Part shown: positions 1 through 6,000 of the stretch, in pieces | Layout of the letters: the number at the start of each line of letters is the position of its first letter | Position numbering within the stretch: the stretch's first letter is position 1 | DNA from: Mytilus edulis | Lineage: Eukaryota | DNA length: 64,000 nt | Reading direction: 5' to 3' | NCBI RefSeq assembly: GCF_963676685.1 | Contig: NC_092353.1 | Coordinates: 26,846,001-26,910,000, forward strand | Made by a program: the position numbers

Positions 1-3000
1 GGCAATCATACCACATCTTATTTTTTATACTAACTTTATCGTATGGCAATGTCTTCGCAAACAAACTTATTGTGCCTGTGTATCATGCATTCATGGACCC
101 ATCATTGCTTGTCTTTTATTTTCGATCGAACAACAATTCAATGAACAAAGGTGTGTTCTATCAGGAAACTATTTTTTTCAATCTTTTCAAATATGATCAA
201 ATCAAAACGAACCACCCTTAGTATGTCTAAGGTATTTAGTTGCATATAACTCAACAACAGGTATCTCCATTTTTAGAATATTTTATAAATTAACCGACTT
301 CCACACAATAGAATAGTTTCTGATGGAAACATTTTTATACGCACCAACACCTTCACTTTTTAAAAGAGAGTTCTACATATTACTGAACATACCGGCATAC
401 GCATTATTCGCAAACGATACTGTAAGATATTCTCTGAGCTAGTTTAAAACGTGTGTATATTTCGTTCACTGGGATATAAGCAACTCGCCATTGGCATAAA
501 ACCAACAGATTAGAACGCTGTTTATTTCAAATTGTCACCTTCAGATATATTGTTGATTGTATGTCACTCAATAAACCTATTTTCTCAATATTGATATAAA
601 TGGACGACTTTAGAATCGTTAACAAATGTTATAATTTTTACATTCCAATTGTCCATTTCCTAGCAGTCACATACCCTCTTCTCCTGCGTATGGTGTTTAC
701 ATATCTCAGTTAATGTAAACATTACGCTCGTGCATGTTCACAGTATGAAAACTTCATAAACAGGTGTATACACGGCCGACACTCGGCTAACGGAGAGATT
801 GGTCGGTTAATCTATATTGAGTATGCGGCTATATGGGCGATTGGTCTGTTAATCGGGTTGGTTATACGTCTGTTAAGAGTAAAACGCTTAATTTAATGTT
901 AAACTCTATTAAATATACAGATTTTTGTCATGTTATAAGAACCAAATCAAAAAAAGAAAAGTGTCTGACAAAATGATATCTATCAGAGAACATTTTGTTC
1001 TTGTAAAAACATTTCTTAGTCTGCGCAGTTTTCAGTAAGACTAAAAGGCGTCGCGCAAGTATGTAGTATTTATGCTTATACGCATAGCAATTTTTTTAAT
1101 AAAAGTCGAAACAAACAAATTTATATATCATTTAAAGGACAAAAAATAGTACTGTGGTTCTAAAAAATAAATTGACATTAGTAAATATTTCATAATTGTA
1201 AAATAACGTGAATAATACCACATTTTAGTGAAAATTATGGGAATAAAGTCTGTTAATGGGTTGGACAATTGAAAGTGTGTCAGTTAAGAGTTATGTAACC
1301 ACGACAATAATTTTGCTACCTCTATATTTTCCCCTTGAAAAATTTAAGAATGAGATGTTCCTGAGTAAACAAAAATGACAATACGGTGCCACAGTATCCT
1401 AGAAAGAGCATTTTTATTTTGACTTTCTTTGCATTTTATTGAAGGGTGTGTCACTTCAATATAGCGTGATATGGATTGGGCTCTGGAATATGCATGAATT
1501 TTTTATTGACGTTTTCAATCAGCCTTACTTTTTGTGTCTGTTTGAAGTAGCACGTGCTCAAATCCGACTGAAAGTGTCGTTCTAATACGACACAGGGTAC
1601 ATATAACGTGTTCTCGTTCACATATGAACATGATATATGTCACTGGACGTTAAATCCTAATTCGTCAGCATCATCAAATTGGTTCTTTTCTTCTATTACT
1701 TAATCATATGTTGTTTACAGATCACTCTAAAGAAAAAAACGGAAAGGAGCGAATGCAGCTACATTTGGTTATTTTAAGTTTCAATTCATTTTACTCCGTT
1801 TAGTTCCTTTCTACATAAGTGCAGAGGAGAACTACAGTTGTCTATGGTGGCCGGTGAAGTCCATTTCGCGTTTTCGCGATTTTGCCTTTCGTATAGTCTA
1901 TAGGGCGAAAAGGCGAAATCGCGAAACTTTGCAATTTCGCGTTTTCGCCATATAGAATATGTAAGGCGAAAACGCTAAAGCGCAAAATGGCATTAACCTG
2001 CCACCATAGTTGTCCACATGTAAACTTCTAGAATTTGTCACCAATATAAGTACATCGCAATCCGTTACTGTTTCAACAGCCATCGGTGTTTCATGTGTGT
2101 ATTCTGAAACAAGTATTATTTTTCTCTCGTTTTTAGCAATGTATCACTATCTACTTTCCTTATATATTATTTTATATTCTACGTTTCCATCCAGATTCTC
2201 GTGTATACCATGAGGGTCCGGATTCGGTGTATTGTTTATTTTTGTATTCTTTAAATTGTTATGTCATTTTTTCTACATTTTATTTATCTTACTCATTATT
2301 GTTTCTTTAGTTTTCATATTTTGTCATCCCAATATATTTTACTAACTGATGTTTAGTTACATTACGACGTTTATCTCTGATTTATATACTGGTTACCAAT
2401 GTAGATGACAAATTTGTGTCATTCATGACAATTAAACAGAATCAACATGATATATGCGATCATTCTTGGATGACATTAATATAACTTTAATATTACACTT
2501 TTTGAAATCATTTTTATCAATTTTCAATTTCATGTGCTGTTTAGTTTTCATATTTTGTCATCCCAATATATTTTACTTACTGATGTTTAGTTACTTTACG
2601 ACGTTTATCTCTGATTTATAAACTGGTTACCAATGTAGATGACAAATTTGTGTCATGCATGACAATTAAACAGAATCAACATGATATATGCGATCATTCT
2701 TGGATGACATTAATATAACTTTAATATTACACTTTTTGAAATCATTTTTATCAATTTTCAATTTTATGTGCTGTTTCCGTATATGTTATGTTTCATTGTT
2801 CATGTGCTGTTTTCGTATATTTTAGCCGCTCGTCTTGAGCCTACTCATTTGATCCGATAGCACCCCATATAGCAATAAAATTATACTTTTATTGCCATTC
2901 ATAACTCTTAACAGACCAATTAACAGACCGGGTTTTATACATCCGACCCATTAACAGACCAGGTTTTAAATAAAGATTGATTTATGTCACCAAAATACAG

Positions 3001-6000
3001 ATTTTCGTGTAAATTTTTCACACAATGATATCAATATGGTTAACAAACATAATGCCTTTCTTTTTTCGATGTTCAAAATATTGAATGCAAGTAAATTTAA
3101 CCAATTTGTCATTTTGTGTACATTTTATGTGTGTAAAATGTGTATAAATTTATTGATGAGTAACCCGCCTTTTAATTTTATAGATCGTACATCGAAGCTA
3201 GAAAATAATAATTACACCACTGAATTCAGTACATTGAATTGTTTTGTTAGACATGAATACTTTTTATAATGAAAATATATTTAGAAAGTTATACAATGAA
3301 ACATGCTAAACTTTCAATGATTTTCTCGATAACACCTGATTAACAGACTTTAGCCAACCCTATTAACAGACCAACCGCCGATATAGCCGCATGCTCAATA
3401 TAGATTAACCGACCAATCTCTCGGTTAGCCGAGTGTCGGCCGTGGTATACTAACACGGTAAAACTCTTGGATTGGTTGTGATGGTGTCACAACTCAATAG
3501 CGACATGTATTCGCGGTCTTACACTCTTTTGATATCAGTATAGTCGTCTGTAATTTTACTTAACGTTCCCTATTAACGATTGTGATATTTTGACTGAGTT
3601 TGAATTCACATGACTGGTGTTGCTTGCATACATGTAGGAGTACCACACTACTTCCTCGGTGCACCCGGTTCTCCTCTGGGGTTTCCCATGTTACTTTGAT
3701 TCGTTTCTTCCATATTGATTGACGAGAATATCGGCAAACAAATATCGTCTTTATTAGCTAACAAAAACTGTTTGGTGCACACCTTTGATACGGGACTTTA
3801 CGTTTTGAATTTGTAACTTTGAGTTCTGTATTTTTGTTATTTTTGTTATTTTTTTCAACATTATTACAACACAAAAATGGAGTGGAATCAAAATCGGTGA
3901 ATTGGTTGTGGTTTTACTGTTTTAAAGGTTTTTCATTTTATAATTAAAAAACAGAAGAATAGAAATTTGAATTTGAATGAAATATATCAATTTCAGCACT
4001 AGTCTTAAATCAGTAATACGTCACTGATTTATTTCCCGATTGTCTTGGTGTAATATCAAAATAGTAAACCTCTAAAACAGTAAATGTTTATAAATGATAA
4101 AAAAAAATGCTTATAAAAAGTACAAACCAATTTCCCAATGTAAGAAGAAGACATTGATCCAATTCTAGCACCAGAACTACATAGTCCGAACATAGAGGCG
4201 CGTATCACTGTTGGAAAACATTCTGATGTGATGAGATAAATAAGAAAAAAAGCAGTTGTAACTCCTAACTTTCCAATCATGGCTAGTCCGATAGTTACCC
4301 AATGTAGTGCTGTAAAAGTATTTGTTCATTTTAAAGAAATGAATATGTAATCTGAAAAATCTATTGCATATTTACTAAAGATACAGCTACTGGTGTTTCA
4401 TCGTATTTCAGACTTTTTATATAATTAATCTAAAAAAAATAATAATATCTTCTAGAAAAAAAAATATTTGTTCATTTTAAAGAAATGAATATGTAATCTG
4501 AAAAATCTATATTGCATATTTACAAAAGATACAGCTACTGGTGTTTCATCCTGATAAGTACATCGTATTACAGACTTTTTATATAATTAATCTAAAAAAA
4601 AAATTAATAATATCTTCTAGATAAAATATGATACCTTTTCAAAAGTTATCAAATTGAAATACATTTTTTTGCTGGGTACAAATAGTGACTAAGTTGAACG
4701 TAGAATTGATTTATAACATATATAATATCTATGCATGCGCAAATACTAAGTAATGGAATATCACGAAACTACCCCATTTAAAAACTAAGATATTTACCTC
4801 CACTTGCGTACATAGATGTAAAAATTGTACTGAGACATGCAGTACTACCCAATATCATAGCTGTACAGTAAATTTTCTTTCTCGGTAATTTGTCAGCGTA
4901 AAAACACAATAGCACTGCAACAGTTTCGGCTGTTGTGGAGACTGCATAGTTAGCATATACATTACCTCCAAGATCACCAGTATTCATGGAAATTCCATAG
5001 TATATTAAGCTGATGGCAAACCTAAATAGTAAAGCATGTAAATATTGACAAACGAAAATTGATTTGTTTGGAATTCGTTATTCTGAATGAAACCCAACAA
5101 TACACACAGACATAAAAAAAAAAAAACAACTACTGGACATCAAAACACGGTGTTCAACAAACAAGATACAAAGTATGTATAGATCATTTCAACCTATATC
5201 AGCCGAATACACCAAATTGTCTTAAGTGCAATTCATTAATATGCATGTCCTAGCATTCATACAACGCAATGGTAGTATTGGAAGTTAAGATAGTACTGAA
5301 CATTACGGAAACTACAAGGACGAAAATCATGACAATTGAAGATATTAGATACAGCTAAATGTAGTTTGTTGACGGTGTTTATAAGTTTCTCGTTTTTTTT
5401 TATATAGATAAGAAATGAAATCACAAAAATACTGTACTACCGAGGAAAATTCAAAACGGAAAGTCAAATGACAAAATCCAAATCACAAACACATCAAACG
5501 AATGGATAACAACAGTCATATTCCTGACAGGCATTTTCTTATGTAGAAAATGGTGGATTAAACCTGGTTCTAAAGCTCGGTAAACCTCTGACTTGTATGC
5601 CTGTCGCATCAAATTCTATTATATAGACAACGGTGTGTTGATCAAAACAAACAGACACATTAGGTAGAAATTTCACAAATAGGTAAACAACAGCAACACG
5701 AACCCAACCAAAAGCTGGGGTTGGTATCAGGTGCTTCAAAAGGGTAAGCCGATCCTGCTTTACATGTAGCTGCCGTCGTGTTGCTCATATTATACAAAGC
5801 CGGTAAATAGTCTAATTCGGTAGGTCACATTCGTGAAAAGGAAACGGGATTGTAGTTACGACATAAGGATTATATCCGATATCATCTGTGCAACGGATAT
5901 TCCATAACGGTCAACAAACACGTGATGGCGTCCGTACAATTTACGAAGAGAAGATTTAAATATCACCCTTTGGAACTCTTGGCTTAAAAATTAAATTAAA

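What the first reader, a model, noticed from the sequence alone, without database searches (positions are those of the whole stretch)
766..3449. 2.67-kb CAC...GTG transposon with a 5-bp TSD: Transib/RAG-like signature, with unusually long TIRs and a second inner inverted repeat
Seen: termini CACGGCCGACACTCGGCTAA on both ends, ~105-bp TIRs, and an exact GTATA duplication. The 2-, 3- and 4-bp TSD readings do not fit. The interrupted Penelope frame (NRCI|LT..KLL) confirms the boundaries. The motif GTC(T/G)GTTAA recurs three times in each TIR and again in an inner inverted pair (~1248-1294 vs ~2900-2960). Established: CAC termini plus a 5-bp TSD characterise Transib and RAG-like (ProtoRAG/RAGL) transposons, whereas Chapaev and CACTA have shorter TSDs. 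Inference: this is a non-autonomous member of a possibly undescribed Transib/RAG-related family, and the repeated motif is a transposase-binding site. The heptamer CACGGCC departs from CACAGTG and I see no clear nonamer.
Basis: partly seen in the sequence, partly recalled or inferred. Interest (0 to 1): 0.72.

Follow-up and report, generated by a model that had tools for sequence, protein, structure and literature searches.

The report
Non-autonomous DNA transposon in mussel intron
A 2.7-kb defective cut-and-paste DNA transposon sits in an intron of a blue-mussel transporter gene; its ends hint at kinship with the Transib/RAG transposons but do not prove it, so it is an ordinary repeat with one modest open question.

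Summary
Window 771-3444 (2,674 bp) is bounded by 106/105-bp terminal inverted repeats (98 of 106 columns identical). Both begin with the same exact 20-mer, CAC...GTG outermost. The element is flanked by an exact GTATA duplication, and of flank lengths 1-10 only 5 matches. A 9-bp word, GTC(T/G)GTTAA, occurs 10 times in the element against about 1 expected in the whole window, in mirror-image positions at the two ends. The element has no recognisable coding capacity. An unnamed public protein (P0005) reads into a second copy of the left end, and its homology starts exactly at the CAC codon. The host is Mytilus (an exon is 100% identical to an M. edulis organic-cation-transporter-like protein), and the element lies in an intron of that gene. 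The Transib/RAG-like reading is only partly supported. CAC plus a 5-bp duplication fit. The TIR lacks the Transib heptamer-spacer-nonamer layout and the RAGL A-rich block, the target is AT-rich, and long TIRs with subterminal repeat arrays suit CMC-type elements as well. The "Penelope" label for the flanks could not be confirmed. No mussel genome, Repbase or Dfam was available, so neither the partner transposase nor family-wide duplication lengths could be tested. Verdict: real, ordinary, superfamily unresolved.

The parts
766..770 (.). Left copy of the 5-bp target-site duplication, GTATA
   Evidence: Direct reading. Only flank length 5 of lengths 1-10 matches.
771..3444 (.). Whole non-autonomous element, 2,674 bp, 32% G+C
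   Evidence: Bounded by the TIRs and TSD. The longest stop-to-stop ORF is 99 aa. No Pfam family in 6 of 6 read-through frames at E<=10.
771..876 (+). Left TIR, 106 bp, starting CACGGCCGACACTCGGCTAA. It carries three motif copies at 802-810, 844-852 and 868-876.
   Evidence: P0005 aa 113-153 match 771-893 at 38 of 41 residues, starting at the CAC codon.
1244..1295 (+). Inner left motif block, a partial repeat of the inner half of the TIR. Motif copies at 1248-1256 (GTCTGTTAA) and 1279-1287 (GTCAGTTAA).
   Evidence: Inverted pairs I7, I15 and I19; alignment; motif table.
1842..2009 (.). Nested palindromic MITE-like insert of about 165-168 bp, not part of the family's own structure
   Evidence: 60-nt arms 77% complementary. 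Self-inverted blastn match 79% over 170 columns. The flanks read as a 4-bp (TTGT) or a 6-bp (GTTGTC) duplication.
2306..2776 (+). Internal tandem duplication, 234-bp unit x 2.0, 97-98% identical
2900..2962 (-). Inner right motif block with three copies at 2908-2916, 2920-2928 and 2951-2959. It is the inverted partner of 1244-1295.
3340..3444 (-). Right TIR, 105 bp, with three motif copies at 3340-3348, 3363-3371 and 3405-3413
   Evidence: P0005 aa 113-142 match 3444-3355 at 26 of 30 residues.
3445..3449 (.). Right copy of the target-site duplication, GTATA
572..770 (+). Left flank: a decayed reading frame full of stops and frameshifts, ending ...ENFINRCI at the junction
   Evidence: No family or homologue found.
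3450..3741 (+). Right flank: continuation of the decayed frame (LTR*, then other frames)
   Evidence: 0 hits at E<=0.001 among 1.84 billion representatives. No Pfam family of relevance.
4128..4310 (-). Nearest exon of the host gene (aa 403-463 of an organic-cation-transporter-like protein). The element lies in the intron downstream of it.
   Evidence: tblastn of P0003, 100% identity over 61 residues. The last 81 aa are not encoded anywhere in the window.

Best explanation
Window 771-3444 is a defective (non-autonomous) cut-and-paste DNA transposon. It inserted, with a 5-bp staggered cut that duplicated GTATA, into an older decayed repeat inside an intron of a Mytilus organic-cation-transporter-like gene. 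It encodes nothing recognisable, so it must have been moved in trans by a DDE transposase from an autonomous relative. That enzyme would cleave at the CAC...GTG tips. It would be positioned by several copies of the word GGTC(T/G)GTTAAT: three in each 106-bp TIR and two or three more about 480-540 bp inside each end. Later a small palindromic MITE-like element inserted at 1842-2009 and a 234-bp segment was duplicated in tandem. Steps shown: the transposon structure, its boundaries, the 5-bp duplication, the lack of coding capacity, the existence of a second copy, and the host context. Steps inferred: the binding role of the word, and the type of partner enzyme. The CA...TG-type ends place the element in the EnSpm/Mirage/Chapaev/Transib ('CMCT') grouping. 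Within that grouping the 5-bp duplication points to a Transib/RAG1-like partner, only narrowly ahead of a CMC-type partner.
For: Structure and boundaries. Second copy: P0005 was the 1 hit at E<=0.01 among 8 candidates. Its homology starts exactly at the CAC codon, at 38 of 41 residues to the left end and 26 of 30 to the right end. Its upstream 112 aa are unrelated to the window's flank. The Thr-Thr codons before its CAC force C-N-A-C-N, so GTATA is target sequence and not part of the element. Non-autonomy. Binding-site inference: the word is 10-fold enriched and strictly mirrored in position and orientation. The 360-380 bp between the outer and inner blocks are barely alike in inverted orientation (6 of 200 shuffles reach the global score, 12 of 200 the local score) and not alike in direct orientation (112 and 61 of 200). 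Family: CMCT lineages share CA..TG ends and 2-5 bp TSDs (PMC12730594 passages). Transib and RAGL give 5 bp and CAC. In ProtoRAG assays CAC is essential while substitutions at heptamer positions 4-6 had no significant effect (PMC8289069 passages), so a divergent heptamer is not disqualifying. RAGL elements occur in other Mytilidae, namely Modiolus and Bathymodiolus. Host.
Against: Only one copy with both ends was seen, so the 5-bp length rests on n = 1. The TIR is 106 bp, against the 37-38 bp described for Transib. Positions 4-7 read GGCC. No A-rich nonamer follows a 12-bp or 23-bp spacer: positions 20-28 read ACGGAGAGA and positions 31-39 read GGTCGGTTA. Against the protostome RAGL consensus CACTWMCAAACKTYKBB, 8 of the 14 positions after CAC are compatible, where about 5.8 are expected by chance (my arithmetic). 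The conserved AAA at positions 8-10 reads GAC. The target is AT-rich, unlike the GC-rich preference of Transib, ProtoRAG and RAG. A survey of mollusc genomes found a single Transib DDE ORF, while CMC elements were found in all genomes analysed (PMC10294476 passages). No transposase remnant is present in the element. No binding test was done.
Confidence: 0.45

Rival explanations
1. The partner is a CMC-type transposase (Chapaev, Chapaev-3 or EnSpm-like) from a lineage that makes, or here happened to make, a 5-bp duplication. The mechanism is the same, but the element belongs to a different branch of the CMCT grouping.
For: CAC...GTG ends are shared by CMC elements. CMC elements were found in all mollusc genomes surveyed, against one Transib ORF. 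The two curated bivalve CMC-Chapaev-3 consensus sequences I could read both begin with CAC (supplement file 8 of PMC10294476). Long ends carrying arrays of a short subterminal word are, as I recall and from no call, typical of CACTA-type elements. TSD length has been reported to vary within related lineages.
Against: CMC TSDs are given as 2-4 bp, and here lengths 2, 3 and 4 fail. Neither curated bivalve CMC consensus shares this terminus: 0 occurrences of the 10-mer end words in the library text.
Confidence: 0.35
2. The element belongs to another superfamily that can give 5-bp duplications (hAT5, Ginger2, or a KolobokP terminal repeat moving on its own), or to a superfamily not yet described.
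For: hAT5 gives 5 bp. Ginger2 gives 4 or 5 bp. Some KolobokP families, present in Mytilus, give 4-5 bp. hAT elements are abundant in bivalves, and the hAT5 consensus I read carries subterminal word arrays.
Against: The third terminal base of hAT elements is stated to be always G, and here it is C. KolobokP termini are RR..YY and its terminal repeats are direct. Here the ends are CA..TG and inverted. Ginger ends, as I recall and from no call, are TGT..ACA.
Confidence: 0.13
3. It is not a mobile element. It is a local inverted duplication whose flanking GTATA repeat arose by chance.
For: Only one complete copy lies in the window.
Against: The inverted repeat ends flush on both sides at an exact 5-bp direct repeat, with a chance probability of about 0.002. 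A second copy of the end sits in a different flank, with homology starting at the same base triplet. The flanking frame reads through once the element and one repeat copy are removed.
Confidence: 0.02

Closest known systems
Transib transposons (e.g. Drosophila and Anopheles Transib families, Hopper/Nozomi, HzTransib)
   Same: CAC...GTG tips, a 5-bp target-site duplication, and the existence of non-autonomous derivatives moved in trans.
   Different: The TIR is 106 bp, not 37-38 bp. Heptamer positions 4-7 differ, and no nonamer-like A-run sits at the 12-bp or 23-bp spacing. The target is AT-rich rather than GC-rich. Arrays of a subterminal 9-11-bp word extend to about 540 bp inside each end. 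The transposase is unknown.
Protostome RAG-like (RAGL) transposons of oysters and of the mussels Modiolus and Bathymodiolus
   Same: Bivalve hosts, CAC tips, invariably 5-bp TSDs, and reported non-autonomous TIR pairs.
   Different: The consensus CACTWMCAAACKTYKBB is not matched beyond chance, and AAA at positions 8-10 reads GAC. RAGL TIR conservation spans about 13-15 bp, whereas here it spans 106 bp plus inner blocks. There is no RAG1L or RAG2L remnant. The paper's own TIR lists are in figures and PDF files that I could not read.
CMC elements (EnSpm/CACTA, Mirage, Chapaev, Chapaev-3)
   Same: CAC tips, presence in all molluscs surveyed, and long structured ends.
   Different: Their TSDs are 2-4 bp; here the TSD is 5 bp.
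hAT5 group of hAT transposons
   Same: A 5-bp TSD, and subterminal word arrays in the one bivalve hAT5 consensus I read.
   Different: hAT ends have G at position 3; here it is C.
KolobokP terminal repeats in Mytilus
   Same: The host genus, and TSDs of 4-5 bp in some families.
   Different: Their termini are RR..YY with long terminal direct repeats. Here the termini are CA..TG with inverted repeats only.

Membership tests
Transib | 5'-CAC ... GTG-3' termini | tested here: met
   against PMC1131882 passages.
Transib | 5-bp target-site duplication | tested here: met
   Only length 5 of lengths 1-10 matches, but on one copy only.
Transib | RSS-like 38-bp TIR: CACAATG-like heptamer, 23-bp (or 12-bp) spacer, A-rich nonamer | tested here: not met
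   The heptamer reads CACGGCC. Positions 31-39 read GGTCGGTTA and positions 20-28 read ACGGAGAGA. The nonamer is not universal: PMC8289069 states that HzTransib TIRs have little or no nonamer similarity.
Transib | GC-rich target preference | tested here: inconclusive
   GTATA has 1 of 5 G+C. The second copy's flank is constrained to C-N-A-C-N. This is n = 2 at most.
Transib | Autonomous partner encoding a Transib/RAG1-core DDE transposase | not testable with these tools
   No mussel genome and no repeat library were available. The element itself has no domain in 6 of 6 frames.
RAG-like (RAGL) transposon | TIR consensus CACTWMCAAACKTYKBB with conserved AAA at positions 8-10 | tested here: not met
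   CAC matches. 8 of the 14 later positions are compatible, against about 5.8 expected by chance. AAA reads GAC.
RAG-like (RAGL) transposon | 5-bp TSD | tested here: met
RAG-like (RAGL) transposon | Convergent RAG1L-RAG2L gene pair in autonomous copies | not testable with these tools
   None in this copy. No genome to search.
CMC (EnSpm/Mirage/Chapaev) | CAC ... GTG termini | tested here: met
CMC (EnSpm/Mirage/Chapaev) | 2-4-bp TSD | tested here: not met
   Lengths 2, 3 and 4 fail, on one copy only.
hAT5 | Terminal third base G (YAG-type ends) | tested here: not met
   The third base is C.
KolobokP | RR..YY termini and long terminal direct repeats | tested here: not met
   The ends are CA..TG. 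The terminal repeats are inverted, not direct.
Penelope-like retroelement (the flanks, not the element) | Reverse-transcriptase or GIY-YIG domain, or homology to family members | tested here: not met
   No relevant family in 6 of 6 read-through flank frames at E<=10; the only hits are two noise matches in one frame at E 0.26 and 0.8. 0 hits at E<=0.001 in 1.84 billion representatives. No word-sharing candidate. The sequence is heavily decayed, so this does not exclude the label.

The most novel reading that the evidence does not exclude
The element represents an undescribed mussel lineage mobilised by a Transib/RAG1-like transposase. This lineage would recognise its ends through 106-bp TIRs and arrays of an 11-bp subterminal word, not through a heptamer-spacer-nonamer. 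That would be a different end-recognition design within the RAG/Transib clade, in a phylum where a survey found only one Transib transposase ORF.
Probability: 0.22. Interest if true: 0.5.

Novelty: new member of a known kind. Interest (0 to 1): 0.25.

Why it matters
As it stands, this is routine repeat annotation: one more non-autonomous TIR element in a repeat-rich bivalve genome, sitting harmlessly in an intron. It would matter more if its partner proved to be a Transib/RAG1-like enzyme. Transib is nearly unrecorded in molluscs, RAGL elements are known from related mussels, and an end design built on long TIRs with repeated accessory sites would widen what is known about how RAG-family transposases find their substrates. 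The clean boundaries, the second copy and the defined candidate binding word make this a quick question to settle for anyone with a Mytilus assembly.

Tried and rejected
More copies in the window: self-blastn of 1-5200 against the window found none, of the element or of its flanks.

Transposase remnants:
- Pfam on 82 ORFs. Inside the element only two sub-threshold noise hits appeared: Apq12 at E 0.024 and Sina_RING at E 0.0039, both far below their cut-offs.
- Pfam on six read-through frames of the element gave 0 families.

Identity of the flanks:
- A word-based protein search with the left flank found no candidate.
- A full HMMER search of 1.84 billion representatives with the right flank gave 0 hits.
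- Pfam on six read-through flank frames gave only two noise hits.

Literature and library look-ups:
- End and motif words as text in 8.4 million papers gave only chance hits in primers and barcodes.
- The same words in the curated bivalve TE library (supplements of PMC10294476, which include about 40 M. edulis DDE entries) gave 0 hits for the 10-mer ends and only single, scattered motif words. That text keeps only about the first 400 bases of each consensus, so 3' ends and interiors went unseen.
- Papers holding both Mytilus and Transib numbered 7, and none describes such a family in its listing.
- A search for a heptamer word together with Transib found 0 papers.
- PMC3093488 (the superfamily table) is not held.

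Other scans:
- The prokaryotic genome collection was scanned for the 20-mer end and gave 0 matches. This is uninformative for a mussel repeat.
- Rfam on 1-6000 gave 0 matches.

Ideas considered and rejected:
- That the inverted repeat really includes GTATA. The apparent extension comes from the GTATAC palindrome, and no duplication lies outside it.
- That the two ends are simply 540-bp degenerate TIRs. The middle parts are barely more alike than shuffles.
- TSD lengths other than 5.
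Full report
**What is there.** Window 771-3444 is a 2,674-bp, 32% G+C segment bounded by terminal inverted repeats.
- The outermost 20 bases, CACGGCCGACACTCGGCTAA, occur exactly twice in the 64-kb window, once at each end in inverted orientation. None is expected by chance.
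- The ungapped inverted match is 94 nt at 94%.
- With one gap the arms run 771-876 and 3340-3444, and 98 of 106 columns are identical.
- Immediately outside the arms lies GTATA on both sides (766-770 and 3445-3449). I compared flank lengths 1 to 10 and only length 5 matches. From the window's base composition, a 5-bp match at that exact place has a chance of about 0.002.
- blastn extends the inverted match by five bases into the flanks. This happens only because the right flank reads GTATAC, a palindrome. No direct repeat exists outside that alternative boundary.

**An independent check of the boundary.** The reading frame that runs through the left TIR (window 771-893, 41 aa) found one public protein, P0005. 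It is 153 aa, its source is ENA, it has no name, and it was the 1 hit at E<=0.01 among 8 candidates.
- Its last 41 residues match the left end at 38 of 41. They also match the right end at 26 of 30.
- In both cases the match starts exactly at the His codon, CAC.
- Its first 112 residues have nothing in common with the window's flank.
- The match continues past base 876, where the two arms of the window's element diverge, and there it follows the left arm. P0005 therefore holds a left end of another copy, sitting in another site.
- The two Thr codons before its CAC force the preceding five bases to be C-N-A-C-N. GTATA is therefore target sequence, not part of the element.
- I could not read that copy's DNA or its other end.

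**Inner anatomy.** The word GTC(T/G)GTTAA gives 11 hits in the window against 0.98 expected, and 10 of the 11 lie in the element, which is 4% of the window.
- All 8 exact GTCTGTTAA hits lie in the element.
- Counting the variant GTCAGTTAA, 5 of 5 copies in the left half are on the + strand and 6 of 6 in the right half are on the - strand.
- Their distances from the nearer end mirror each other: 32, 74, 98, 478, 509 on the left and 32, 74, 97, 486, 517, 529 on the right.
- The commonest extended form is GGTCTGTTAAT.
- The 360-380 bp between the outer and inner blocks are barely alike in inverted orientation: 6 of 200 shuffles reach the global score and 12 of 200 the local score. They are not alike in direct orientation: 112 and 61 of 200.
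- Short word clusters kept in place within spacers that are free to drift are what protein-binding sites look like. That remains an inference.
- Two later events lie inside the element. One is a palindromic MITE-like insert at 1842-2009. The other is a 234-bp tandem duplication at 2306-2776.

**Coding capacity.** The longest stop-to-stop frame in the element is 99 aa. Of 82 ORFs sent to Pfam, those inside the element gave only two weak sub-threshold hits that I take for noise. Six read-through frames of the whole element gave no family at E<=10. The element is non-autonomous and keeps no recognisable transposase remnant.

**Context.** An ORF at 7636-7917 (-) is 100% identical over the aligned part to 'organic cation transporter protein-like isoform X1 [Mytilus edulis]' (P0003, 544 aa; 2 hits among 27 candidates).
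- Mapped exon by exon, residues 1-463 of P0003 fall in eight blocks from 22247 down to 4128 on the - strand.
- The last 81 residues are encoded nowhere in the window.
- The element therefore lies in an intron of this gene, downstream of the exon at 4128-4310.

**The flanks.** They hold a frame riddled with stops and frameshifts. Removing the element and one GTATA gives ...ENFINRCI|LTR*, and KLL then lies in another frame. Nothing I could run supports the name 'Penelope':
- There was no word-sharing protein.
- There were 0 hits among 1.84 billion representatives.
- There was no relevant Pfam family in six read-through frames.

This does not exclude the label, because the sequence is very decayed.

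**Which family.** From passages of the papers I read:
- Transib ends are a 38-bp consensus of CACAATG, a 23-bp spacer and AAAAAAATC. Their TSDs are 5 bp and their targets GC-rich. hAT ends always have G at position 3 (PMC1131882).
- Protostome RAGL ends follow CACTWMCAAACKTYKBB with a conserved AAA at positions 8-10 and invariably 5-bp TSDs. Such elements occur in oysters and in the mussels Modiolus and Bathymodiolus (PMC7204232).
- In ProtoRAG, CAC is essential, while substitutions at positions 4-6 had no significant effect, and targets are GC-biased (PMC8289069).
- EnSpm, Mirage, Chapaev and Transib together share CA..TG ends and 2-5-bp TSDs, and hAT5 gives 5 bp (PMC12730594).
- CMC gives 2-4 bp. 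Some Transib relatives give 3 bp or TA, and the authors warn that TSDs and TIRs should support but not override transposase homology (bioRxiv 10.64898/2026.08.26.747230).
- KolobokP, present in Mytilus, gives 3-5 bp but has RR..YY ends and direct terminal repeats (PMC9587614).
- Ginger2 gives 4 or 5 bp (PMC10045372).
- A mollusc survey found one Transib DDE ORF, and found CMC in all genomes analysed (PMC10294476).

Measured against these, the element meets CAC and 5 bp. It fails the Transib heptamer-spacer-nonamer layout. It fails the RAGL consensus: 8 of the 14 later positions are compatible against about 5.8 expected, and AAA reads GAC. Its target is AT-rich. It also fails the hAT and KolobokP end rules and the CMC TSD range. 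No superfamily is met on every testable feature. The decisive feature, the partner transposase, could not be tested.

**My weighting.**
- That it is a real non-autonomous cut-and-paste transposon: about 0.95 or higher.
- That it belongs to the CMCT grouping: about 0.8.
- Within that grouping, a Transib/RAG1-like partner about 0.45 and a CMC-type partner about 0.35.
- Other or undescribed superfamilies: about 0.13.

The 5-bp duplication is the only feature that separates the first two, and it rests on one copy.

**What stayed unchecked.** No eukaryotic genome, Repbase or Dfam was at hand, and /data held only the window. The one open DNA collection holds only prokaryotes, and it had no match. 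Genome-wide TSD tables, autonomous copies, an empty site and prior curation are therefore all open.

The TIR lists of PMC7204232 are in figures and PDF supplements. Figures 4 and S4 of PMC1131882 and Table S2 of the preprint were not visible either. Each could hold an end closer to this one. The curated bivalve library I could search keeps only about the first 400 bases of each consensus. It has no entry with this terminus or with clusters of this word.

**Verdict.** This is an ordinary defective DNA transposon of a mussel, and its superfamily is unresolved between Transib/RAG-like and CMC.

Noticed in passing
window 1842-2009: A 165-168-bp palindromic MITE-like element is nested in the transposon, with 60-nt arms 77% complementary. 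Its flanks can be read as a 4-bp duplication (TTGT, ends CTATGG..CCATAG) or a 6-bp one (GTTGTC, ends TATGG..CCATA). Its family is unknown.
   Followed up: partly
window 2306-2776: A tandem duplication of a 234-bp unit (2.0 copies, 97-98% identical) lies inside the element. It is younger than the divergence between the element's own TIR arms (92% identity).
   Followed up: partly
window 4128-22247 (- strand): The host gene is an organic-cation-transporter-like (SLC22 / Sugar_tr) gene. Eight exon blocks are 94-100% identical to a Mytilus edulis protein. The last 81 residues lie beyond the left edge of the window.
   Followed up: yes
window 4314-4461 and 4460-4626: Two adjacent direct repeats of about 150-167 bp, 86% identical, abut the exon at 4128-4310.
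   Followed up: no
window 37704-37790 / 38432-38518: An inverted-repeat pair (87 nt, 85%) encloses about 640 bp. Translated pieces of its arms weakly resemble the flank of P0005, the protein that reads into the second copy of the transposon end. That other copy therefore seems to sit beside a repeat also present here.
   Followed up: partly
window 11775-12378: A complex of near-perfect inverted repeats: 153-nt arms at 98% and 121-nt arms at 97%, within about 600 bp of an intron.
   Followed up: no
window 8752-8904 vs 9761-9910, 12963-13113 and 13317-13467: Several copies of a repeat of about 150 bp lie in inverted orientation within introns of the transporter gene (81-93% complementary).
   Followed up: no
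window 44221-45633 vs 49661-49891: A run of repeated units of about 57-110 nt at 44.2-45.6 kb is inverted relative to a copy at 49.7-49.9 kb (71-77% complementary). It looks like a short satellite-like array.
   Followed up: no
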